From Caldisericota bacterium (GTDB lineage Bacteria; Caldisericota; Caldisericia; Cryosericales; Cryosericaceae), in NCBI GenBank assembly GCA_026390195.1, contig JAPLGK010000024.1:1-51768 (forward strand): a stretch of DNA of 51,768 bases. The letters are read 5' to 3'. Below the pieces are notes generated by a model. It ran no database searches, was not told the DNA's origin, and was given only the letters and a program-made list of their open reading frames with translations. The position numbers were made by a program, and so were the translations under genes. This document shows positions 5,238 through 21,335 of this stretch, piece by piece. How positions within the stretch are numbered: the stretch's first letter is position 1; each line of letters begins with the position of its first letter.

Positions 5238-6524
5238 TTACAGTGGCTTGATGGGTGCGGAGTAGACGCGCGCAGCGGGCACGCTGACCAGCTCGCGCTC
5301 GGGGTAGCGCAGTGCAGTCAGGCTGCCTCCATGGACGCAACCGGTGTCGATGTTGATGCTGTTCCCGACCCATACCGCTTCGGCGACGGGCAAGTGTCCC
5401 CAGACGACGACCGCCTCGCTCTCGTACGCGTGGGCCCAGTCCACCATGACCTTGAGCCCGAATTCATCCCGCCGGCCCGTCGGGGTGCCAAACAGGGCGA
5501 TGTCGCGGGCCCGCGGCGAGTCCACGCCGTGAAGTTCCTGCGGCAGGCCCGCATGCGCCACCACCAGGCCGCCGCCGTTCAGGATGAGGTGTGAGGGAAG
5601 TCCGTCCAGAAAGTCGCGGACAAGCGCCTGCATCTCCTCGCCCGCTGCACTCAGTTCCTGCAGTGTACGGTCGAGGCCGTTGCTGATCTTGACCGGGGCT
5701 CCCTGCAATGCCCTGAGCAGCTTGTCGTCGTGGTTGCCTGGCACGGCCAGGGCGGCGCCGGAACGGACCATCGCCATGACGATGAGAAGCGAGCGGACAT
5801 TGTCGGGTCCGCGGTCCGTGAAGTCGCCGACAAAGACGGCCGTCCTGCCCTCTGGCGCCATGATGCGAGGAATCAGGGCATCCGGGTTCTCAACCTTGTA
5901 GCCCATAACCTTGAGCAGGGACAGGAGTTCATCACAGCACCCATGGACGTCACCGATCATGTCGAAGGATCCAGTCTTGTCGCGCCACATGGACGGCGAG
6001 AAACGGGCAGGCGCTCCGAAGGCATCTGCCTCTTCCGCGGAATGCAGGACAGTCACGGGGTCGAATCCCTCATGCCTCAGTGTATCGGTGCTGACGGGCG
6101 CCTGGGCACACTGACGGTCGACGACGAAGTCCCCTACGACACGGTCCACCCGCTGGCGATTGCGTTCCTTGCACACCTGGGGTGGAAGCTCGAACAGGAT
6201 GGCCATACACGGTCGATGATAACGGGCTGCAAGCTCCAGCAGGGGCCGGCGCGCCTTGGCCTGAACGTTCGTGGCGTCGACGACCGTGAGGCGGCCGGCG
6301 CGCAGGCGTTGTTCAACGATAGAGTGGAGCACCGCAAATGCCGCCGTAGTCGCCGCCTGGTCCGCTTCGTCGTCCGCGACCATGGCGCGGCAGGCATCCG
6401 ACGACACGATCTGGGTCGACTTGAAGTGTTGCCGTGCAAAGGTCGACTTGCCCGACCCGGACGGGCCGACAAGCACGACGAGCGTCCCCTGTGCGATGCC
6501 GTGTCCTGTGGGCTGAGTGGTCAT
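5238..6524 (-). CDS. Polynucleotide kinase-phosphatase (Pnkp-like; kinase + metallophosphoesterase only)
   Basis: GPSGSGKSTF, SSD, VVDATN; GDVHG, GDFTDRGP, GNHD, DTGCVHGG, LTALRYPERE. Confidence 0.85.
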   Translation of the reverse strand: MTTQPTGHGIAQGTLVVLVGPSGSGKSTFARQHFKSTQIVSSDACRAMVADDEADQAATTAAFAVLHSIVEQRLRAGRLTVVDATNVQAKARRPLLELAARYHRPCMAILFELPPQVCKERNRQRVDRVVGDFVVDRQCAQAPVSTDTLRHEGFDPVTVLHSAEEADAFGAPARFSPSMWRDKTGSFDMIGDVHGCCDELLSLLKVMGYKVENPDALIPRIMAPEGRTAVFVGDFTDRGPDNVRSLLIVMAMVRSGAALAVPGNHDDKLLRALQGAPVKISNGLDRTLQELSAAGEEMQALVRDFLDGLPSHLILNGGGLVVAHAGLPQELHGVDSPRARDIALFGTPTGRRDEFGLKVMVDWAHAYESEAVVVWGHLPVAEAVWVGNSINIDTGCVHGGSLTALRYPERELVSVPAARVYSAPIKPL

Positions 6525-8808: not shown

Positions 8809-8981
8809 GCTCCGACCTCCTCAGAATCGATGAGACCAGCATACCCACAAGGGCGCTGTGGTGCAAGTGTTCAGGCGGACGACAAAGGCTCTCCCGCACT
8901 GTACACGACTCCTGGCGGGTTCTGTCGCAAGAGAGACGACGAGATGTTCAACGGCAACTCAGGGTCACGCAGCGCCGGTTT

Positions 8982-9009
8982 TTGACACCAGGCCTCCAGG
9001 GCGTATACT
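8982..9009 (+). promoter_or_regulatory. sigma70-type promoter for the ABC importer operon
   Basis: TTGACA-16bp-TATACT. Confidence 0.65.
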
Positions 9010-9169
9010 GTTGCCGGTCAAGAACAAACCGGCTTCAGTTCCGTCGCGGACTGTCGCTGTGGCCGTGCGCCGTCGTGCGTGTGGCTTCAGGTTCTGCGCC
9101 GTTGTGCGCTGTGCCTCCGGTGAAACGGGGCGTGTTGTCGCCGTAATCATCCACCTTGGAGGTTGTGCC

Positions 9170-10609
9170 ATGCACACGAGAATTCGTCGTTTCACCGGTC
9201 TTTTCCTGATTGTCGTCGCCATGCTTGTCGCCAGTATCCCATCCACGACTGTACGGGCAGCATACCGGCCAGTGTCGTCTGTCGTGCTCACCGTAGGGAG
9301 TCCGACGATGACTGTAAACGGTTTCCTCTTTCCGATCGATCCTGCGAACTTGAAGGTCGTTCCTGTTGTCGAAGCAGCGTGGGATAGAGCTCTCGTGCCG
9401 ATTCGCAGCATCGTCGAGCTGACTGGTGGCGACGTGAAGTGGACCCCCGCCACCAGGACAGTGCATCTGTCGCTGGAGTCACACGTGGTCGAACTGACGG
9501 TGGGGAAGGCCAGTGCGCGGGTCGACGGACGCACAGTATGGATCGACACAAACCATCGGGTCGTGCCGACCATCGTTCTCGGTCATGTGATGATCCCCGT
9601 CCGGTTTGCCGCACAGTCGCTCGGAGGGCTGGCAAACTGGAATGCTGAGAGCAAGATGATTACGCTGACGCTGCCCAAACAGATGGAGCAGGTCACCGAC
9701 ATGATGGGGCACGCCGTGACTGTGCCGCGTCGCGTGGTGCGCATTGCGACCCTTTCCGCGACTGCCACCCAGCTTGTCTTTGCCGTCGGAGCACAGGACC
9801 AGCTCGTCGTCGCAAGCTTCGGTTCCGCCGTCAAGGGGAAGGCCATGGAGGCGATCTATCCTCGGATGAACCAGGTCCCCGAAGCTGGCAACCAGAATGC
9901 GGCGAACGTCGAGACTCTGCTTGCAGCCCGTCCGGATATCGTACTGACGGAAGAGGGCCCCGCGCTGGATCAGATGAAGGCAGTTGGGCTGCCGGCGTAC
10001 GCGTTCTCGGCCGAGCAGCCGGGACAGCTCTACGATGCCATCAAGCGGATGGGAGCGTTGACCGGGCACACGGCAGAAGCAGCTGCCTCGCTCGACGTGC
10101 TGACCACGAAGATGAAGGAGATCACGGACGCGGTCGGGGTCGTGGAACCTGCGCGAAGCCTCAAGGTCTACGTCGCCGGGACGAGCATCTTCAGGACGTT
10201 TGGCGGTGACTTCTTCCAGACGTTCATAGTGAGGAACGCCGGGGGCGTGAGCGTTTCCGAGCAACTGACTGGCGGCAAAGTTGACGTTTCTCCCGAGCAG
10301 GTGCTCGTCTGGAACCCGGACATCATCATCCTCACGTCTTATACCAAGGACACCGTGAGTGACGTCATTACCAACCCCAAGCTGCAGAATGTGGCGGCCG
10401 TGCGGGACCACAGGGTCTACGTGATGCCGAAATACGTTGTCTCGTGGGACATGCCGGTCCCCGAGTCGTTTCTGGGCACGATGTGGCTGGCCCACAAGCT
10501 CTATCCCGACCAGGTCCGGTTCGACATGTCTGCCGAGATTGCACAGTTCTACCGGCAGTTCTATGGGTTCACGGTCCCCGCGGCCGACCTTGCGGCGCTT
10601 TCCCAGTAG
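9170..10609 (+). CDS. Stalk (Cu amine oxidase N-terminal) domain fused to a BtuF/FecB-type ABC substrate-binding protein
   Basis: Signal peptide; R.LVPIR and MIPVRF stalk motifs; TDMMGHAVTVPRRVVRI, NVETLLAARPD, EQVLVWNPD, AVRDHRVY. Confidence 0.85.
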   Translation: MHTRIRRFTGLFLIVVAMLVASIPSTTVRAAYRPVSSVVLTVGSPTMTVNGFLFPIDPANLKVVPVVEAAWDRALVPIRSIVELTGGDVKWTPATRTVHLSLESHVVELTVGKASARVDGRTVWIDTNHRVVPTIVLGHVMIPVRFAAQSLGGLANWNAESKMITLTLPKQMEQVTDMMGHAVTVPRRVVRIATLSATATQLVFAVGAQDQLVVASFGSAVKGKAMEAIYPRMNQVPEAGNQNAANVETLLAARPDIVLTEEGPALDQMKAVGLPAYAFSAEQPGQLYDAIKRMGALTGHTAEAAASLDVLTTKMKEITDAVGVVEPARSLKVYVAGTSIFRTFGGDFFQTFIVRNAGGVSVSEQLTGGKVDVSPEQVLVWNPDIIILTSYTKDTVSDVITNPKLQNVAAVRDHRVYVMPKYVVSWDMPVPESFLGTMWLAHKLYPDQVRFDMSAEIAQFYRQFYGFTVPAADLAALSQ

Positions 10610-10612
10610 CGC

Positions 10613-11404
10613 ATGGAACAAACCCGTCCGTCGGTCGTTGACATCCAGAATCTTGGCTTTGCCTACGGCGAGGCCATGATCCTCCACGATCTCACCATGG
10701 CTGTGGGTCCCCACGAGGTCTTCGGCATCGTGGGACCAAACGCGGCTGGCAAGACGACGCTCCTTCGCTGTGTTGAGCGGGTCCTGACTCCCCGAACCGG
10801 GACGATCCGTATCGACGGTCGTGACCTGAAGACGCTGTCAGCTCGCGACGTGAGCAGGCGTGTGGCTTCCGTTCCACAGTCTCATACGCCTGCGTTCCCG
10901 TATACCGTTCAGGACATCGTGCTCATGGGACGCAATCCCCACCTGGGCGCTGCTTCTCAGCCCGGTCCGCATGACGTGGCTGTGGCACAGGAGGCCATGG
11001 ACGAACTTGGCATACGTGCGATCGCCGCCCGTCCCTACACCCAGCTGTCCGGTGGACAGCTTCAACTGGTCCTGCTTGCCCGCGCGTTGACACAGGAGGC
11101 ACAGGTCCTGCTGCTGGACGAGCCGACAGCGCACCTCGACTTCCGAAACCGGCACCTGGTGTTGAGTACGATACGCGATCTTGCCGTCCGCCGCGGGCTG
11201 GCCGTCATCATGACCGTCCATGATCCCAACGATGCCATGCAGTATGCCGACCGCGTGGGGCTTGTGAGCGAAGGAGGCCTGATTGCACTCGGGACTCCCC
11301 AGGAGGTCTTGACGGCAGACAATCTGGGGCGACTCTATGGCATGCCCATCGAGGTCCTGACCGATGGCGCACGGCACGTGATTGTCGCAGGGATCGGTTC
11401 ATGA
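10613..11404 (+). CDS. Fe-chelate/cobalamin ABC transporter ATPase
   Basis: GPNAAGKTT, LSGGQLQ, LLLDEPTAHLD, HDPN. Confidence 0.9.
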   Translation: MEQTRPSVVDIQNLGFAYGEAMILHDLTMAVGPHEVFGIVGPNAAGKTTLLRCVERVLTPRTGTIRIDGRDLKTLSARDVSRRVASVPQSHTPAFPYTVQDIVLMGRNPHLGAASQPGPHDVAVAQEAMDELGIRAIAARPYTQLSGGQLQLVLLARALTQEAQVLLLDEPTAHLDFRNRHLVLSTIRDLAVRRGLAVIMTVHDPNDAMQYADRVGLVSEGGLIALGTPQEVLTADNLGRLYGMPIEVLTDGARHVIVAGIGS

Positions 11405-12414
11405 AGCGTGTGCGGTTCCTGCCGACTCTGCTCCTTATGTGGGTGGGCGTGTTAGCGGTGCTTCTGGCGTCGCTTTGCCTGGGTCGCTATCCCATCGCTC
11501 CGAAAACTGTCCTGCAGGTGCTGCTCTCACGTCTCGCGCCCATTCTCCGCACATGGGACCCGACCGTCGAGACCGTAGTCTGGCAGGTGCGGCTTCCCCG
11601 CGCACTGGCGGCTGCCCTGGTCGGTGCTGCGCTTGCTTCCGGCGGAGCAGTCTTCCAGGGGCTGTTCCACAACCCGCTGGTTTCGCCGTACGTTCTTGGT
11701 GTCTCCTCGGGTGCGGGGTTCGGGGCCGCGGTCGCCATCTTGCTGGGCGCAGGCGCTGCGGTCACGCAGGCCTCAGCCTTTGCGACAGGGGCACTTGCGG
11801 TGTCGTTAGCATGGCTGATCGCCCGGTCCGGGCGTGACCGGTCACACGTGACCCTGGTGCTCGCGGGCTTCGTCGTCGGGAGCCTGTTCTCGTCGCTGGT
11901 GGCTGGGGCACAATACGTAGCCGACCCGTCGACGAAGCTGCCCCAGATCGTCTTCTGGTTGATGGGTTCACTTGCGTCTGCGCAGTGGTCGGATCTCCTC
12001 AGGGCCGTCGTCGTGATCGTGCCGTGCCTGCTGGCCATCACGGTGTTGCGCTGGAAGCTCAACATCCTCTCCATGGGCGACGACGAGGCGCGGTCGCTGG
12101 GCGAGAACCCCACGGCGATGAGGGTCGTGCTCATCGGGTTGACGACCATGACCACTGCTGTCAGCGTGGCGCTCTCCGGTGTCATCGGGTGGGTCGGGCT
12201 GGTCGTGCCGCATCTGGCACGCGGCATCGTCGGGCCGGATTCCCGCAAGCTCATACCGGCTTCCATCGCCCTGGGGGCAATCTACGTGATGATCATCGAC
12301 GATGTGGCGCGTAGCCTGACGATGGCGGAGATCCCGCTGGGTATTCTGACCGGGATCGTTGGTGCGCCCGTCTTCGCGCTGCTGTTGCGCCGAAGCCGCT
12401 CGGACTGGGACTAG
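11401..12414 (+). CDS. FecCD/BtuC-family ABC permease
   Basis: RLPR, QGLFHNPLVSP..LGVSSGA, EARSLG, IGWVGLVVPH, EIPLG. Confidence 0.9.
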   Translation: MKRVRFLPTLLLMWVGVLAVLLASLCLGRYPIAPKTVLQVLLSRLAPILRTWDPTVETVVWQVRLPRALAAALVGAALASGGAVFQGLFHNPLVSPYVLGVSSGAGFGAAVAILLGAGAAVTQASAFATGALAVSLAWLIARSGRDRSHVTLVLAGFVVGSLFSSLVAGAQYVADPSTKLPQIVFWLMGSLASAQWSDLLRAVVVIVPCLLAITVLRWKLNILSMGDDEARSLGENPTAMRVVLIGLTTMTTAVSVALSGVIGWVGLVVPHLARGIVGPDSRKLIPASIALGAIYVMIIDDVARSLTMAEIPLGILTGIVGAPVFALLLRRSRSDWD

Positions 12415-13183: not shown

Positions 13184-14254
13184 ATGACCGGCAGGAAGAT
13201 CCTGAAAGGCGCGCTGACTCAATTGCCCATCGAACTCTATGAGCTGATGGTCCAGGGCGCCTCACGCCGTCCGCTTCCTCCCATCGCCTTCACCAGCAGG
13301 GACCACTTTTCCCACCGGGGGGCACGCATCGAGTGGTGGTATTTCACCAGCGTGCTGACGACACCGGCGAGAAAAGCGCCCGTTGGACTCGAAGTGACCT
13401 TCTTCAGAGTGAAAACGCTGGTCGACAGCGTGATCGTCCACGCAGCTGTCACCGACGTCGATGGCCAGAAGTACTCTTATACCGGCATGGTCCTGCCCGT
13501 GCACATTCCCTTCACCTCCGACGCTCAAACAGTGATTGCATTGTTCGGCAACCGGGTGGGGTTCAGTGAAGATCGCAACAGTCTCGTCATCGACACACGC
13601 CTGAGGGGCCTGCAGGTACACTGTTCTTGTGCCATCCAGGACGTCATGGCACAGGGAGCGGGTGGTATCCTGGAGATGCAGAACAGCCCAGGTGATGCGT
13701 CCTACTACTTCACGTTGCCTAACCTGCGGACCGAGGGCACGATTGTCCTGAACGGCGAGAGTCTTCCCGTCACCGGGCTGACGTGGCATGACCACCAGTG
13801 GGGCAACTTCAACGTGGTCAACCTCAAGTGGGACTGGTTCTCGCTCCGGTTCGACGATGAGGACCTGTATGTCATGCTGTTCAACTTCGACCGGTGGGGC
13901 ACGACGTACGGAGCCGGGAACGTGTACCGGCATGGGCGAACGATGCGGGTCGAACGGTTTGAGGTGCGGGCGTCGGACGTCTGCGTGGCTCAGAACGGCA
14001 TCACATACCGCATCGACTGGGAGCTGCGGATCTTTGAGAATCCCGAAGCATCCACTCCCTTCATGACCGCACACGTGAGACCGGTCCTCAAGGAGCAGTA
14101 CCTGTCATCGTTGATCACGCCGGGCTACTGGGAGGGCCTGTGCACCGTCCACGGTGAGATCACGACCCCGGTCGACCTGGATGGTACCCGCTTCCTGGAC
14201 AGAAAGGTACTGGACGGGTTCGCCTACGTGGAGCTGACGGGATACGAACAGTAG
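13184..14254 (+). CDS. Lipocalin-like CrtC/AttH-family hydratase-like protein
   Basis: EWWYF, SYYFT, WHDHQWG, WDWFSL, YWEG, AYVELTGY. Confidence 0.8.
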   Translation: MTGRKILKGALTQLPIELYELMVQGASRRPLPPIAFTSRDHFSHRGARIEWWYFTSVLTTPARKAPVGLEVTFFRVKTLVDSVIVHAAVTDVDGQKYSYTGMVLPVHIPFTSDAQTVIALFGNRVGFSEDRNSLVIDTRLRGLQVHCSCAIQDVMAQGAGGILEMQNSPGDASYYFTLPNLRTEGTIVLNGESLPVTGLTWHDHQWGNFNVVNLKWDWFSLRFDDEDLYVMLFNFDRWGTTYGAGNVYRHGRTMRVERFEVRASDVCVAQNGITYRIDWELRIFENPEASTPFMTAHVRPVLKEQYLSSLITPGYWEGLCTVHGEITTPVDLDGTRFLDRKVLDGFAYVELTGYEQ

Positions 14255-15325: not shown

Positions 15326-15364
15326 TTGACACATGACAGTATTATCATATGATACCAGCATCAT
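15326..15364 (+). promoter_or_regulatory. Promoter with two tandem ArsR/SmtB-type operators
   Basis: TTGACA-16-TATGAT overlapped by ATGA-N8-TCAT at 15333-15348 and 15349-15364. Confidence 0.7.
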
Positions 15365-15665
15365 GAAAACCAACACGACACTCGACGCACTGACGTCGTT
15401 CTACAAGCTGCTGGCAAATGAGTCGCGGCTGTCCATCCTGCTTGCTCTCCGCGATGGTGAGGACAACGTCGCCGGCATCTGCGGCCAAACGGGCCTGAGC
15501 CAGACGCTCGTCTCGCACCAGCTAGCCGTCCTGCACCGCAGCGATGTCGTCCGTTCCCGCAAGGATGGACGGCGCACGTTCTACGCCTTGGCGGACAAGC
15601 ACATCGACATCATTGTCGGGTTTGCGCTGGACCATCTTGCAGAAAAGGAAGTACACCATGAGTGA
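15363..15665 (+). CDS. ArsR/SmtB metal-sensing repressor (alpha5 site, Zn/Co-type)
   Basis: LANESRLSIL, LSQTLVSHQL, RKDGR..FY; D-x-H-x10-H-x2-E (DKHIDIIVGFALDHLAE). Confidence 0.9.
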   Translation: MKTNTTLDALTSFYKLLANESRLSILLALRDGEDNVAGICGQTGLSQTLVSHQLAVLHRSDVVRSRKDGRRTFYALADKHIDIIVGFALDHLAEKEVHHE

Positions 15666-16560
15666 CCACCACGAACAGGAGCTGGCCACTGGGCGCAACC
15701 TGCTCATCTCCATTCTGATGAACGTTGTCATCACTGTATCGGAAGTCGTCGGCGGCCTCGTCTCCGGCTCGCTGGCGCTACTTGCCGACGCATTTCACAA
15801 TGCGACGGACACCCTGGCCGGTGTCCTGGCTCTGTGGACGCTGCGCCTGGGGCGGCGCGCCCATGACGAGCAGTACACATTCGGGTATCGGCGTGCCGAG
15901 ATCCTGTCCGCGGGCATCAACGCAGGGGCCATGGTCGTCATCGCGTTCGTCCTGTTCCGCGAGGCATACGTACGGTTCCTGCATCCGGTCCCCATCAAGG
16001 GCGCCATCATGCTGGCCGTTGCCCTGGTCGGGCTGGGGGCCAACCTCGTGTCCGTCCTCCTGCTCCACCGCTCCGCCGGCGAAAGCCTCAACATCCGCGG
16101 CGCCTACCTGCACCTGCTGTCGGACACGCTCTCGTCCGTTGGCGTTGTTGTGGGCGGTGTCGTCGTCACGCTGTGGCGGGCCACGTGGGTGGACTCGCTG
16201 GTCACGGTTCTGGTGGCTGCCTGGGTCCTGAAGGAGGCGTTCTCGGTCGTCCGCGAGGCCGGTGGCATCCTCATGGAGCGGGCCCCGGAGGGGCTGGATC
16301 TAGCGCAGCTGGACGCCGACATCCGGGCGCTGCCGCATGTGAAGGACCTGCATCATGTCCATGCCTGGCAGCTGGGCGATACCGAGACGATGTTCGAGGG
16401 GCACCTAAACGTCGACGACATCTCGGTCCGCGACACCGGGCCAATGCGGGAGCAGATAGAAGGGCTGCTGCATGACAAATACGGTATCACGCACGCCACC
16501 CTGCAGTTTGAGTACGAGTCCTGCAAGGGGGCCGGGCTCATCGTGCACGGCAAGAACTAA
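15658..16560 (+). CDS. czcD: CDF cation efflux transporter (CzcD/ZitB)
   Basis: SGSLALLADAFHNATD, TFGYRRAEIL, NIRGAYLHLLSD, HHVHAW, HATLQFE. Confidence 0.9.
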   Translation: MSDHHEQELATGRNLLISILMNVVITVSEVVGGLVSGSLALLADAFHNATDTLAGVLALWTLRLGRRAHDEQYTFGYRRAEILSAGINAGAMVVIAFVLFREAYVRFLHPVPIKGAIMLAVALVGLGANLVSVLLLHRSAGESLNIRGAYLHLLSDTLSSVGVVVGGVVVTLWRATWVDSLVTVLVAAWVLKEAFSVVREAGGILMERAPEGLDLAQLDADIRALPHVKDLHHVHAWQLGDTETMFEGHLNVDDISVRDTGPMREQIEGLLHDKYGITHATLQFEYESCKGAGLIVHGKN

Positions 16561-16634: not shown

Positions 16635-17618
16635 ATGGTTCGACGAGTATGCATCGCGCGCATTCTTCGGCTTTGTGCGGCGGTTGCCGTCATTACAGGG
16701 TTGTCCATACTGCCGGTCAGGGTCCGGGCGGCGCAGCCACTGGTCGACGGCGTCGTCAAGGTGGGCGAGTACGACCACAGCACCGTGCTGGGAAACGGGC
16801 TGTACACGCTGTCCTGGACTGTTGCGAGTGACACGGCATGGTTCGGCATCCAGGCGACGACGACGGGCTGGGTCGCGCTGGGCATCGACCCCGAGATCGC
16901 GATGAATGGAGCCGACATGGTGTTCGGCTGGGTCAGTGGAGGCAAAGCAACGGTTCTTGACCAGTACTCAACCGGGATGTTCGGGCCACACCCTGACGAC
17001 ACATCATTGGGCGGCACCACGGACATCCTGTTCAGTGGGGGGAGTGAGCAGGCAGGGACGACGACCATCGAGTTCAGCCGCAAGCGGGTCACGGGTGACA
17101 AGTATGACAAGCCGGTGCCGGCGTCCGGGAACCTGAAGATCGTCTGGGCGATCGGCAACGCAGACGGCATATCGCCTCATGCGGCAAAAGGGAGCGCGAC
17201 CATCAACGTCGGGGCTCCTGCGTCCATCGTGCTGACGTTCACGATCGGCTCGATGACAGGGACGCGAAACGGCACACCGGTAACGCTCGACGCGGCTCCC
17301 GTCATCCAGAACGGGAGGACGCTGCTTCCCGTGCGCTACGTCGTAGAGCCGCTGGGGGCGATGGTCACCTGGACCGCAGGCACCCAGACGGTGACCATCC
17401 AGCGCTCAGGCCTGACGCTTGCGCTCGTCGTGGGCAAAGCAACAGCAACTGCGAACGGGGTGAGCGTACGCATCGACCCGGCTGACGCCCACGTGGTGCC
17501 GGTCATTCTCCAGGGGAGGACAATGCTGCCCGCCCGGTTCGTCGCCGAGCAGCTAGGGTGTGCAGTCAGCTATGACCCGACGACAAGGGTTGTGACGGTC
17601 ACCTTCCCGAAGCCCTGA
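16635..17618 (+). CDS. Secreted DOMON-domain protein with C-terminal stalk domain
   Basis: Signal peptide; GWVALG...MNGADMVFG, IEFSRK..TGD..D, WAIG...H; GRTLLPVRY and GRTMLPARF stalk motifs. Confidence 0.8.
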   Translation: MVRRVCIARILRLCAAVAVITGLSILPVRVRAAQPLVDGVVKVGEYDHSTVLGNGLYTLSWTVASDTAWFGIQATTTGWVALGIDPEIAMNGADMVFGWVSGGKATVLDQYSTGMFGPHPDDTSLGGTTDILFSGGSEQAGTTTIEFSRKRVTGDKYDKPVPASGNLKIVWAIGNADGISPHAAKGSATINVGAPASIVLTFTIGSMTGTRNGTPVTLDAAPVIQNGRTLLPVRYVVEPLGAMVTWTAGTQTVTIQRSGLTLALVVGKATATANGVSVRIDPADAHVVPVILQGRTMLPARFVAEQLGCAVSYDPTTRVVTVTFPKP

Positions 17619-17627
17619 GCCAAGGTG

Positions 17628-18041
17628 TTACAGGATGCCGGCCTGCCGCAATCCGGCGAAGATGGTAAGCAGGAACAGCAGAACAGCGACGCGGCCCGCC
17701 CACAGGTGGACAGTCCGCAACTGCCTCCTGTTGGCGTGTGCCTTGGTCGTGATGAGCCCTCCTGCTCCTGTGAGGAACCCCAGCAGGATGGTGACTGTAC
17801 CGAAGATGCCGTGGGGGACGCGGAGGTGTGGTCCACCACTGGCTTGGACCATGCCGGCGGCCACGACCAACCCCGCTGCCAGGAGCACAAACGCTGTCAC
17901 GGCGGCAATCTTGTGAATGCGGAAGGACCCCTTGCGGTGGCGTCCGAGTGTGACAGCCCAGGCGGCCATGAGAAGCGATAGGACAGCACTGCCCATAAGG
18001 ATTGCGTGAACCGGCCAGACTCGTGCATAATCGGCGAACAT
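17628..18041 (-). CDS. Small 4-TM cytochrome b561-like (DUF4079-like) membrane protein
   Basis: Four His, one per TM: VHAILM, IHKI, PHGIFG, VHLWAGR; SD GGAGGTG. Confidence 0.7.
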   Translation of the reverse strand: MFADYARVWPVHAILMGSAVLSLLMAAWAVTLGRHRKGSFRIHKIAAVTAFVLLAAGLVVAAGMVQASGGPHLRVPHGIFGTVTILLGFLTGAGGLITTKAHANRRQLRTVHLWAGRVAVLLFLLTIFAGLRQAGIL

Positions 18042-20378: not shown

Positions 20379-21335
20379 TCAGGTGGAGCACGTGAAGTCG
20401 TAGATCTGCCGGCTGTCGACTCCGCGCTTGCTCAGTGCTGACAGCAGCAGCTCCGCGCGTTCCAGGTGCACTTCGATGACGTTGAGGTCGAACGGCAGTT
20501 GCCCAAGCTTCCCTCGCGTCAGGTGCCGTGCGTCGAGGACTCTGTCAGCAGCCACGTCCCGCGGGTCCACCAGACGGGCGGTTCCCGTAAGCTGGAGCCC
20601 CCCGACATCTGCCATCGTGTGATACGGGTCGAAGACGCAGACCGACACATGCGGGTTCGAGAGCAGATTAGCGAACTTGACGCCGCCCTCGCTGAGGAAG
20701 TATAGGCAACCCTGGGTATAGATGTATTCGATAGGGGTTGCGCGGATACCCGCGTCGCCAGCGGTGGCAAGGGCGCACGTATCGTGCGAGCAGAGGAAGC
20801 GCTCGATCTCGGAGCGCAGCTGTCCGTCGTCCAGGTGGCAACCCAGGGAGTCTCGGATGTCCCTCAGCTTGAGGCCCCACGCTGCCACGGCAGACCAGTC
20901 CAGCGTGTCGGCGTTGTTCACCGAGGAACCGGTAGCACAGGCAAAGGCTTCCATTGTTGCGCGGTCGGCGGTGTCCAGGGAGGCCACATCCAAACGACCC
21001 CCCAGCGATGTTCCAGAGACGAGCGACGGACCGATCAGGCGGGACAGCGAGGTGCGGTAGCGCCCCTTGTCATCCGGTGCCAGGCTGGAAGTGAACAGCG
21101 CGACCTTACGCTGGGCGAGCCAGTCCCGGTTCTCCTCCACGAAGCGCGTGGCACGGGGATCAGGGACTTCTCCAAAAATGGGGGTTCCGATGACGACGAA
21201 TTCGCAGGCGCATGCCGCCGGAGCGAATCCCTCGACGGGCGATGCGCGTGCCGGTCCTAGGATTCGGGCAAGTGCCCGGGCGATGTCCCGGGTGGTACCA
21301 TAGTGTGAGACGTAGAGGACACAGGTGTGGATCAT
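20379..21335 (-). CDS. Flavodoxin (HemG-like) fused to a pyridoxamine 5'-phosphate oxidase-like domain
   Basis: YVSHYGTTRDIA...GTPIF; second domain CALAT, RATPIEY, KFANL..NP.VS. Confidence 0.75.
   Translation of the reverse strand: MIHTCVLYVSHYGTTRDIARALARILGPARASPVEGFAPAACACEFVVIGTPIFGEVPDPRATRFVEENRDWLAQRKVALFTSSLAPDDKGRYRTSLSRLIGPSLVSGTSLGGRLDVASLDTADRATMEAFACATGSSVNNADTLDWSAVAAWGLKLRDIRDSLGCHLDDGQLRSEIERFLCSHDTCALATAGDAGIRATPIEYIYTQGCLYFLSEGGVKFANLLSNPHVSVCVFDPYHTMADVGGLQLTGTARLVDPRDVAADRVLDARHLTRGKLGQLPFDLNVIEVHLERAELLLSALSKRGVDSRQIYDFTCST

What the first reader, a model, noticed from the sequence alone, without database searches (positions are those of the whole stretch)
16635..18041. 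Split bacterial CYBDOM-like system: surface DOMON protein convergent with a stand-alone cytochrome b561
Seen: a secreted DOMON domain with candidate heme ligands (Met in AMNGADM, His in ISPH) and a stalk domain ends 9 bp from a 137-aa 4-TM protein carrying one His per helix (HAILM, HKI, HGIFG, HLWAGR). Established: eukaryotic CYBDOM/SDR2 ferric reductases fuse a heme DOMON domain to a cytochrome b561 with this four-His pattern. Inference: the two genes form a trans-membrane electron conduit to an envelope-anchored heme protein. The DOMON gene directly follows arsR-czcD, which hints at metal reduction or homeostasis.
Basis: partly seen in the sequence, partly recalled or inferred. Interest (0 to 1): 0.7.

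Follow-up and report, generated by a model that had tools for sequence, protein, structure and literature searches.

The report
Loosely linked DOMON and cytochrome b561
An anaerobic bacterium carries two tail-to-tail genes, one for a secreted DOMON protein and one for a tiny four-helix membrane cytochrome, which are fused in many other microbes and likely pass electrons out of the cell on scavenged haem, but close relatives often keep one gene without the other.

Summary
16635-17618(+) encodes signal peptide + DOMON (Met90/His182) + stalk domain. 17628-18041(-) encodes a 137-aa, four-helix cytochrome b561 (His12/43/77/112, plus a conserved fifth, His72). The gap is 9 bp. The nearest named relatives are Ca. 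Cryosericum (Caldisericota).

For a link: 29 of 80 related DOMON loci are fused to this b561 family, and 51 of 150 b561 hits are longer proteins carrying DOMON. The 9-bp junction looks ancestral in the genus; b561 relics remain behind DOMON in three genomes.

Against a tight system: the genes converge, so they are not co-transcribed. Only 2 of 23 congeners keep both, six keep b561 alone and four keep DOMON alone, each under purifying selection. HemB was found in 0 of 23, so haem would have to be scavenged. The arsR-czcD link is confined to this genus and does not support metal reduction.

Best reading (0.55): a dispensable, loosely coupled outward electron relay that works like CYBDOM but is not one. 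This scan has already reported split and fused DOMON-b561 in other prokaryotes. My paper searches listed no paper on prokaryotic DOMON-b561.

The parts
15326..15353 (+). sigma70-like promoter (TTGACA-16-TATGAT, 11 of 12 matches) in front of arsR; likely drives arsR-czcD and possibly the DOMON gene
   Evidence: read-through into the DOMON gene is inferred and untested
15333..15665 (+). ArsR/SmtB metalloregulator (longest ORF; likely start at ATG 15363)
   Evidence: NF033788 71.3 bits, cut-off 55
15658..16560 (+). CDF cation-efflux transporter (czcD/zitB-like)
16635..17618 (+). secreted DOMON-stalk protein, 327 aa (P0001)
16635..16730 (+). predicted signal peptide, residues 1-32 (cleavage site inferred by eye, no predictor run); Sec type is likely because the twin Arg is not kept in congeners
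16794..17156 (+). DOMON domain, Pfam residues 54-174; the model folds like DBH DOMON and the haem domains of CDH and PDH
16902..16904 (+). Met90, predicted axial haem ligand
   Evidence: Met in 51 of 51 DOMON domains of proteins found by the b561 profile; analogy to HYP1 M90
16989..16991 (+). His119 of the GPHP motif, invariant, role unknown
17178..17180 (+). His182, predicted axial haem ligand
   Evidence: His in 50 of 51 (one gap); analogy to HYP1 H174
17265..17597 (+). copper-amine-oxidase N-terminal ('stalk') domain, a likely envelope tether; 27 ORFs of this genome carry it
17619..17627 (.). 9-bp stop-to-stop spacer; length constant but sequence variable in relatives; no terminator-like site
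17628..18041 (-). stand-alone four-helix cytochrome b561, 137 aa (P0002): His12/His77 predicted outer pair, His43/His112 predicted inner pair, His72 on the predicted outer loop
18250..19050 (+). Bax inhibitor-1/YccA family gene, divergent from the b561; right-hand border of the variable slot that holds both genes

Best explanation
The two convergent genes encode a DOMON-stalk protein with a predicted signal peptide and a stand-alone four-helix cytochrome b561, which likely form a loose, dispensable relay that would carry electrons outward across the membrane on haem scavenged from the environment. SHOWN: both domains, their folds, the conserved Met/His and four His, fusion of the same two domains in many prokaryotes, a conserved 9-bp junction in the genus, independent loss of either gene, and no HemB found in the genus. 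INFERRED: the b561 binds two b haems (His43/His112 inside, His12/His77 outside) and takes electrons from a cytoplasmic donor. A reduced flavin or flavoprotein is the likeliest donor, since no UbiA prenyltransferase for quinones was found. The outer haem, perhaps helped by His72, reduces an oxidant at the cell surface either directly or through the Met90/His182 haem of the envelope-tethered DOMON. The likeliest acceptors are Fe(III) complexes or oxygen-derived oxidants, which would make this an accessory iron/oxygen-stress device of an anaerobe. The contact is probably transient, and each protein also has a use alone.
For: Fusion: 29 of the 80 best metagenome DOMON loci are DOMON-b561 fusions (80 kept of 279 confirmed, not dereplicated). 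Of 150 best b561-profile hits, 77 are longer than 200 aa and 51 of those carry this DOMON (Pfam confirmed DOMON in 11 of 11 checked). Fusions occur in this phylum: G026, and 6 of 9 genomes of family f7. Ligands: all four His in 138 of 150 hits; Met 51 of 51 and His 50 of 51 in the DOMON set not selected by motif. Topology: the TM1-2 and TM3-4 loops each carry 4 K/R and no D/E, matching the CYBDOM layout with H1/H3 outside and H2/H4 inside (PMC10691727). Linkage: the 9-nt gap recurs in G016, G017, G019 and L101-L104. G006, G012 and G013 lack the b561 but keep a decayed copy of its 3' end at the same offset (12-15 of 18 nt identical, binomial P 7e-4 to 2e-6). G002, G010 and G017 keep DOMON-gene 3' relics. 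In family f2 the same 3 of 9 genomes carry both genes at distant loci; 5 have neither and 1 has a broken b561 only. Redox context of DOMON homologues: fusions to redoxin (3 of 3 checked), PQQ-type propellers (2 of 2) and rhodanese (2 of 2); SOD next door in 3 loci and peroxiredoxin-type genes in 2, among 30 loci sampled.
Against: Only G000 and G016 of 23 congeners keep both genes (G016's DOMON is cut by a contig end). Six keep b561 with no intact DOMON (G001, G008, G010, G017, G019, G020; G017's b561 is cut by a contig end). Four keep DOMON without this b561 (G011, G012, G013, G018). Purifying selection persists without the partner: b561 dN/dS is 0.08-0.30 among G001/G008/G010/G020 and DOMON dN/dS is 0.08-0.14 among G011/G012/G013/G018 (pairwise values include time before the loss). 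In family f5, 11 of 13 genomes have the DOMON and only 1 has a b561. The convergent layout rules out one transcript. HemB 0 of 23 in the genus; ferrochelatase, UbiA, cytochrome bd and catalase each 0 of 5 genomes tested, so neither the haem supply nor the donor is shown. Where the stalk domain holds the DOMON relative to the inner membrane is unknown.
Confidence: 0.55

Rival explanations
1. The two proteins work independently today. The b561 is a self-sufficient transmembrane oxidoreductase, as CybB and Dcytb are, and the DOMON-stalk protein is a separate envelope haem protein. Their adjacency is a historical leftover in a variable slot between czcD and the Bax-inhibitor gene.
For: Ten of 23 congeners keep exactly one gene, under purifying selection. 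The slot is empty in 5 genomes and filled by other genes in about 10. About half of the b561 hits (73 of 150) are 200 aa or shorter, though some are fragments. Many long b561 hits carry a different outer domain. A minimal 4-helix b561 works alone as superoxide oxidase (PMC11869295, start of abstract in listing).
Against: This genome has one such DOMON gene and two genes of this b561 family, so chance adjacency of two domains that are fused elsewhere is unlikely (inference). The junction looks ancestral. In f2 the genes co-occur without linkage. G011, G012 and G013 hold a paralogous b561 elsewhere that could stand in.
Confidence: 0.27
2. The pair serves haem acquisition rather than electron export. 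The DOMON would capture environmental haem as a haemophore, and the b561 would reduce it for release or uptake as an iron or cofactor source, like the CFEM haemophores and Frp1/Frp2 of Candida.
For: HemB was not found in this genus, in f2 or in 5 f7 genomes with the fusion. None of the 7 HemB-positive genomes among 61 has this b561 (these are kin of one family, so not independent). Precedent: PMC13581393 (abstract and outline seen). A BtuCDF/FecCD-type importer with a stalk-fused binding protein lies 4 kb upstream.
Against: Met/His ligation in a CDH-like fold is the electron-transfer arrangement. Homologues are fused to redox domains. No haem-consuming enzyme was found among those tested. The importer's substrate is not identified (all specific models are below cut-off).
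Confidence: 0.13
3. The pair reduces or handles toxic metals under ArsR control together with CzcD.
For: The DOMON gene or its relic follows czcD in every congener locus that has it and reaches upstream, with a 74-nt gap and no terminator-like site here. HYP1 reduces Cu(II) (PMC10784544). Other scan notes report DOMON-b561 beside copper ATPases in archaea (not checked).
Against: czcD was found beside DOMON only in this genus: 6 of 80 metagenome loci, all Cryosericum-like, and none of the f2, f5 or f7 loci (flanks of 1.5-4 kb, often cut). The b561 is on the other strand. arsR-czcD persists with an empty slot. The closest named CDF model exports Zn.
Confidence: 0.05

Closest known systems
Eukaryotic CYBDOM proteins (Arabidopsis HYP1 and CRR; animal SDR2/FRRS1; Drosophila CG8399)
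   Same: Met/His DOMON plus a four-His b561 core with the same predicted sidedness. His spacing is 31/34/35 here against 34/33/36 in HYP1.
   Different: Two convergent genes rather than one polypeptide. The DOMON ends in a bacterial stalk domain. The b561 is a bare four-helix core. Either gene is often lost alone. An ascorbate donor is unlikely in this organism (own knowledge).
Plant AIR12 (stand-alone, GPI-anchored haem DOMON)
   Same: A DOMON-only haem protein tethered to the cell surface (PMC10784544 passages).
   Different: The tether here is a PF07833 domain, the host is a bacterium, and a b561 gene is adjacent.
Single-domain cytochromes b561 (AtCytb561 4O6Y, human Dcytb 5ZLE)
   Same: Top fold matches of the model (TM 0.87 and 0.79); above the PF03188 cut-off.
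   Different: 137 aa against 211-225 aa in the solved chains; only 15-22% identity.
Haem domains of cellobiose and pyranose dehydrogenase (1D7C, 6JT6); EbdC of ethylbenzene dehydrogenase (2IVF)
   Same: Fold matches of the DOMON model (E 6e-6 to 3e-4); Met/His haem b site in CDH.
   Different: No flavin, PQQ or Mo catalytic partner is encoded here.
Bacterial b561 systems: CybB superoxide oxidase; LcoA-BcnA
   Same: Small di-haem membrane cytochromes; LcoA is gene-linked to a secreted partner for envelope oxidative defence (PMC9113575 abstract).
   Different: P0002 gives no hit at E<=0.1 to PF01292, the prokaryotic b561 model (CybB's membership of PF01292 is recalled). CybB needs quinone, and UbiA was not found. 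The partner here is a DOMON protein, not a lipocalin.

Membership tests
CYBDOM | at least one DOMON upstream of the b561 domain in the same polypeptide (PMC10691727) | tested here: not met
   two genes on opposite strands; met by relatives such as P0041
CYBDOM | b561 core of four helices with H1/H3 outside and H2/H4 inside | tested here: met
   (sidedness predicted from loop charges)
CYBDOM | extracellular DOMON with conserved Met and His | tested here: met
   hydrophobic N-terminus; Met90/His182 conserved; geometry in the model was not measured
CYBDOM | three b haems bound | not testable with these tools
   no spectra; HemB not found in 23 congeners
CYBDOM | ascorbate-dependent ferric/cupric reduction | not testable with these tools
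   shown for HYP1; an Arg three residues before His112 is conserved (123 of 150) but its ligand is unknown
Cytochrome b561 (PF03188) | score above the gathering cut-off, b561 fold, four His | tested here: met
   34.3 vs 23 bits; TM 0.87 to 4O6Y
DUF4079 (PF13301) | score above the gathering cut-off | tested here: not met
   21.3 vs 31.4 bits
Prokaryotic cytochrome b561 / CybB type (PF01292) | profile match | tested here: not met
   no hit at E<=0.1
DOMON (PF03351), haem-binding type | score above the cut-off, DOMON fold, Met/His pair | tested here: met
   92.2 vs 32.7 bits; pLDDT 93.9; fold matches
Obligate two-gene (split) system | the two genes are kept or lost together | tested here: not met
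   both in 2, b561 only in 6, DOMON only in 4, relics only in 2, neither in 5, no information in 4, of 23 congeners
Obligate two-gene (split) system | physical contact between the products | not testable with these tools
   needs a bench test; see Tried and rejected

The most novel reading that the evidence does not exclude
Anaerobes that cannot make haem or quinones use a modular, CYBDOM-like wire built from scavenged haem: a minimal eukaryote-type b561 plus exchangeable outer redox heads (DOMON, a secreted superoxide-reductase-like His/His/His/Cys domain, or both in series). This wire exports electrons straight from the cytoplasm to oxidants at the cell surface. Cryosericum carries a two-protein form in which the DOMON has swapped its membrane cytochrome anchor for an envelope stalk yet still docks on a free b561.
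Probability: 0.3. Interest if true: 0.7.

Novelty: new variant of a known kind. Interest (0 to 1): 0.42.

Why it matters
CYBDOM reductases have been studied only in plants and animals in the papers my searches listed. A widespread prokaryotic DOMON-b561 family in anaerobes that appear to lack haem and quinone synthesis would be a simple route for trans-membrane electron export without c-type cytochromes. It would also give small, expressible models for testing what the DOMON haem does, which remains open in HYP1 because ligand mutants mislocalise (PMC10784544). This locus is a weaker example than the fused or co-transcribed ones. Its own value is as a natural experiment showing that each half can persist alone. 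The scan has already reported the split and fused forms on other DNA.

Tried and rejected
Complex prediction of DOMON + b561 + 3 haems: no answer, score 0.00 against a mark of 0.32, controls not folded; this is no evidence either way. RNA runs: no RNA holder listed, so expression and read-through were not tested. PDB sequence search with the DOMON domain: 0 matches at E<=10. NCBIfam: no family for the DOMON protein and only a sub-threshold hit for the b561. ESM Atlas gave no result. The idea that P0002 descends from archaeal b561 proteins fused to a SOR-like domain: FastTree grouped them at 99, but IQ-TREE on 39 chosen rows left that node unresolved, so it is not claimed. The idea that the SOR-like domain is the real partner here: no match covering that part of the profile in 93 genomes of the phylum, and only a weak cross-hit (E 0.14) to the desulfoferrodoxin-like ORF in G000. 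A tblastn-type hit of P0002 at G000:C222 (E 1.4e-4) was not recovered by either profile and was dropped. Two of the six 'split' calls (L117, L136) are partial matches 2.3 kb away and were not counted as pairs. The czcD tree was poorly supported at deep nodes and disagrees with b561 similarity, so no order of events is claimed from it. Conservation of Met90 and His119 in the metagenome loci is circular, because both motifs were search patterns; the 51-protein set was used instead. The scan's sequence look-up with P0001 returned nothing. Iyer et al. 2007 (DOMON superfamily) is not held; from recall it reports prokaryotic DOMON domains, and whether it lists b561 fusions could not be checked.

Full report
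OBSERVATION. The sequence is as described. 16635-17618(+) encodes 327 aa with a hydrophobic N-terminus, a DOMON domain (PF03351, 92.2 bits, cut-off 32.7) and a copper-amine-oxidase N-terminal 'stalk' domain (PF07833, 106.5 bits). 17628-18041(-) encodes 137 aa that pass the PF03188 cut-off (34.3 vs 23) but not DUF4079 (21.3 vs 31.4). The stops are 9 bp apart and both starts have ribosome-binding sites. arsR and a CDF transporter lie directly upstream behind an 11-of-12 sigma70-like promoter. No terminator-like site was found after czcD or between the convergent genes. Named relatives at 81-87% identity include three Ca. Cryosericum records and one Caldiserica MAG; one record of the five carries another label.

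STRUCTURE. The DOMON model (pLDDT 93.9) matches the DBH DOMON, the haem domains of pyranose and cellobiose dehydrogenase, and EbdC. Met90 and His182 correspond to the M90/H174 pair modelled for HYP1 (PMC10784544, passages seen). In the 51 DOMON domains of proteins found through the b561 profile, which were not selected by motif, Met is kept in 51, His182 in 50 (one gap) and His119 in 51. The b561 model has four helices (pLDDT 81.8); its best fold matches are plant b561 4O6Y (TM 0.87, E 8.9e-3) and Dcytb. All four His are present in 138 of 150 homologues, and a fifth, His72, in 135 of 150. Loop charges put the TM1-2 and TM3-4 loops inside. That makes His12/His77 the outer pair and His43/His112 the inner pair, as in the CYBDOM layout (PMC10691727, passages seen).

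FUSION EVIDENCE. The two domains are fused in many prokaryotic proteins. G026, in the same class, encodes a 323-aa DOMON-b561 with 5 clusters of close homologues. Six of 9 genomes of family f7 encode fusions. Among the 80 best of 279 confirmed metagenome DOMON loci, 29 are fused, 3 are Cryosericum-like convergent pairs, 1 is a same-strand split pair (L133), 2 are dubious partial matches and 45 show no b561; many are short contigs and near-copies were not removed. Of the 150 best of 1197 b561-profile hits, 73 are 200 aa or shorter and 77 longer, and 51 of the longer ones carry the DOMON. One is from Heimdallarchaeota. The Cryosericum DOMON clade nests among b561-fused DOMONs, with weak FastTree support of 84-93.

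SYNTENY IN THE GENUS. The conserved frame is arsR-czcD, a variable slot, then BaxI and G5/3D. Of 23 genomes: both genes are present and adjacent in G000 and G016. The b561 is present without an intact DOMON in G001, G008, G010, G017, G019 and G020. An intact DOMON without this b561 is in G011, G012, G013 and G018. G002 and G006 hold only relics or broken copies. The slot is empty in G004, G005, G009, G015 and G021. G003, G007, G014 and G022 give no information (completeness 61-97%). The 9-nt gap recurs with varying sequence in G016, G017, G019 and L101-L104. G006, G012 and G013 keep a decayed b561 3' end at the same offset (12-15 of 18 nt; G011 and L105 only 9-11 of 18). So the junction probably predates these lineages and either gene was later lost. 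Each gene stays under purifying selection among genomes lacking the partner (b561 dN/dS 0.08-0.30; DOMON 0.08-0.14), with the caveat that pairwise values include time before the loss. A paralogous four-His b561 exists elsewhere in G000 and in G011, G012 and G013, but none was found in G018, which is 97% complete. In f2, the same 3 of 9 genomes have both genes at distant loci. In f5, 11 of 13 have the DOMON and 1 has a b561.

COFACTORS. HemB was found in 0 of 23 congeners, 0 of 9 f2 and 7 of 9 f5 genomes, and in 0 of 5 f7 genomes with the fusion. Ferrochelatase, UbiA, cytochrome bd subunit I and catalase were each found in 0 of 5 genomes, four of them congeners at 81-97% completeness; the control genomes rang in each search. 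Any haem must therefore be imported, and a quinol donor is unlikely (inference).

THE arsR-czcD HINT. The DOMON follows czcD throughout this genus, but czcD was not seen beside DOMON outside it, and arsR-czcD stands alone in five congeners. Neighbours and fusion partners of homologues point to redox or oxygen stress instead: SOD next door in 3 loci (2 of them also with a ferritin-like gene), peroxiredoxin-type genes in 2 and nitroreductase in 2, among 30 loci sampled (74 ORFs scanned, 66 of them from the 102 listed). Fusions to redoxin, PQQ-type propeller and rhodanese domains, and to COX2 and P460 domains on the b561 side, also occur. Many b561 relatives carry a secreted 93-aa domain with two invariant His, an invariant Cys and a mostly conserved N-terminal His. 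It weakly resembles desulfoferrodoxin/superoxide reductase (PF01880 E 0.04-0.09 in 3 of 7 proteins; hhalign probability 29%) and often lies in series with DOMON. It was not found in this phylum.

MECHANISM. The most likely reading (0.55) is a loosely coupled outward relay: cytoplasmic donor, inner haem, outer haem, then DOMON haem or a surface oxidant. Every step of electron flow is inferred. The rivals are independent function (0.27), reductive haem capture (0.13; precedent PMC13581393, abstract and outline seen) and ArsR-linked metal detoxification (0.05).

COMPARISON AND NOVELTY. It works like CYBDOM but fails the defining single-polypeptide test, and it fails the test for an obligate two-gene system. 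Searches for DOMON + cytochrome b561 + bacteria (29 papers, 25 listed), CYBDOM (31 papers, 20 listed), DOMON domain + prokaryot + heme + archaea (3 papers) and DOMON + MAG + EET (1 paper) listed no paper on prokaryotic DOMON-b561, judged from titles and abstract starts. Passages of PMC3591440, PMC2739507 and PMC8805035 mention DOMON in eukaryotic ferric reductases, as a ligand-binding fold, and in an MtrA fusion. PMC10691727 has no occurrence of 'bacteri' or 'prokaryot'. PMC9113575 was seen as abstract and outline. No supplements were read. Iyer et al. 2007 is not held and most subscription papers are outside the library, so earlier mention of such fusions cannot be excluded. This scan's notes already describe split pairs in spirochaetes and fused forms in archaea.

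VERDICT. The genes are real and probably linked in function, but the pair is dispensable and decaying in this genus. It is a new variant of a known kind; interest 0.42.

Noticed in passing
P0052, P0069, P0054, L144:241-519, L133:3677-3955, L178:3119-3394: An unnamed secreted 93-aa domain (N-terminal His after the predicted signal, two further His, one Cys), weakly like desulfoferrodoxin/superoxide reductase, is fused to this b561 family alone or in series with DOMON. Some carriers are Methanoregulaceae.
   Followed up: partly
G000:C24:11122-11478 (L066): A second four-His b561-family gene in the same genome, 4 kb from a desulfoferrodoxin-like ORF (C24:6959-7384; labelled from its motifs, not scanned). 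Paralogues occur in several congeners, in tandem in G006 and G013.
   Followed up: partly
window 8858-12414: A BtuCDF/FecCD-type ABC importer whose binding protein is fused to stalk domains; substrate unassigned, haem or corrinoid possible.
   Followed up: partly
window 20379-21335 (-): A fusion of a Flavodoxin_5 domain and a pyridoxamine-oxidase-like domain, 2.3 kb from the b561; a possible flavin donor or haem-handling protein, untested.
   Followed up: no
whole genome G000: 27 ORFs carry the PF07833 stalk domain, which suggests a general envelope tether in this lineage.
   Followed up: no
L153:2-4528: A protein with seven DOMON domains on one b561.
   Followed up: no
L021:727-2067, L157:3210-4532: DOMON-rhodanese-stalk proteins, in family f5 and a metagenome contig.
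   Followed up: no
L142, L152, L168; L139, L148, L165; L145, L177: DOMON genes next to Fe/Mn SOD (with ferritin-like genes in two), DOMON-redoxin fusions, and PQQ-propeller-DOMON fusions.
   Followed up: no
L208 (G010:C24:20000-30000), L209, L210, L213, L226: In congeners the slot holds an 895-aa PAS/GGDEF-like gene and a lower-GC (52%) block with CstA-like and ArsA-like genes; labels are my reading of the translations, not scanned.
   Followed up: partly
genus-wide: No HemB in 23 congeners; no ferrochelatase, UbiA, cytochrome bd or catalase in the 4 congeners tested, yet many carry one to three His-rich b561-type genes.
   Followed up: partly
window 5238-6524 (-): N-terminal half of a bacterial polynucleotide kinase-phosphatase (TIGR04075 positions 5-424 of 851); the two upstream ORFs have no NCBIfam hit at 1e-10.
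   Followed up: no
window 13184-14254 (+): A CrtC/lipocalin-like gene, kept near arsR-czcD in several congeners.
   Followed up: no
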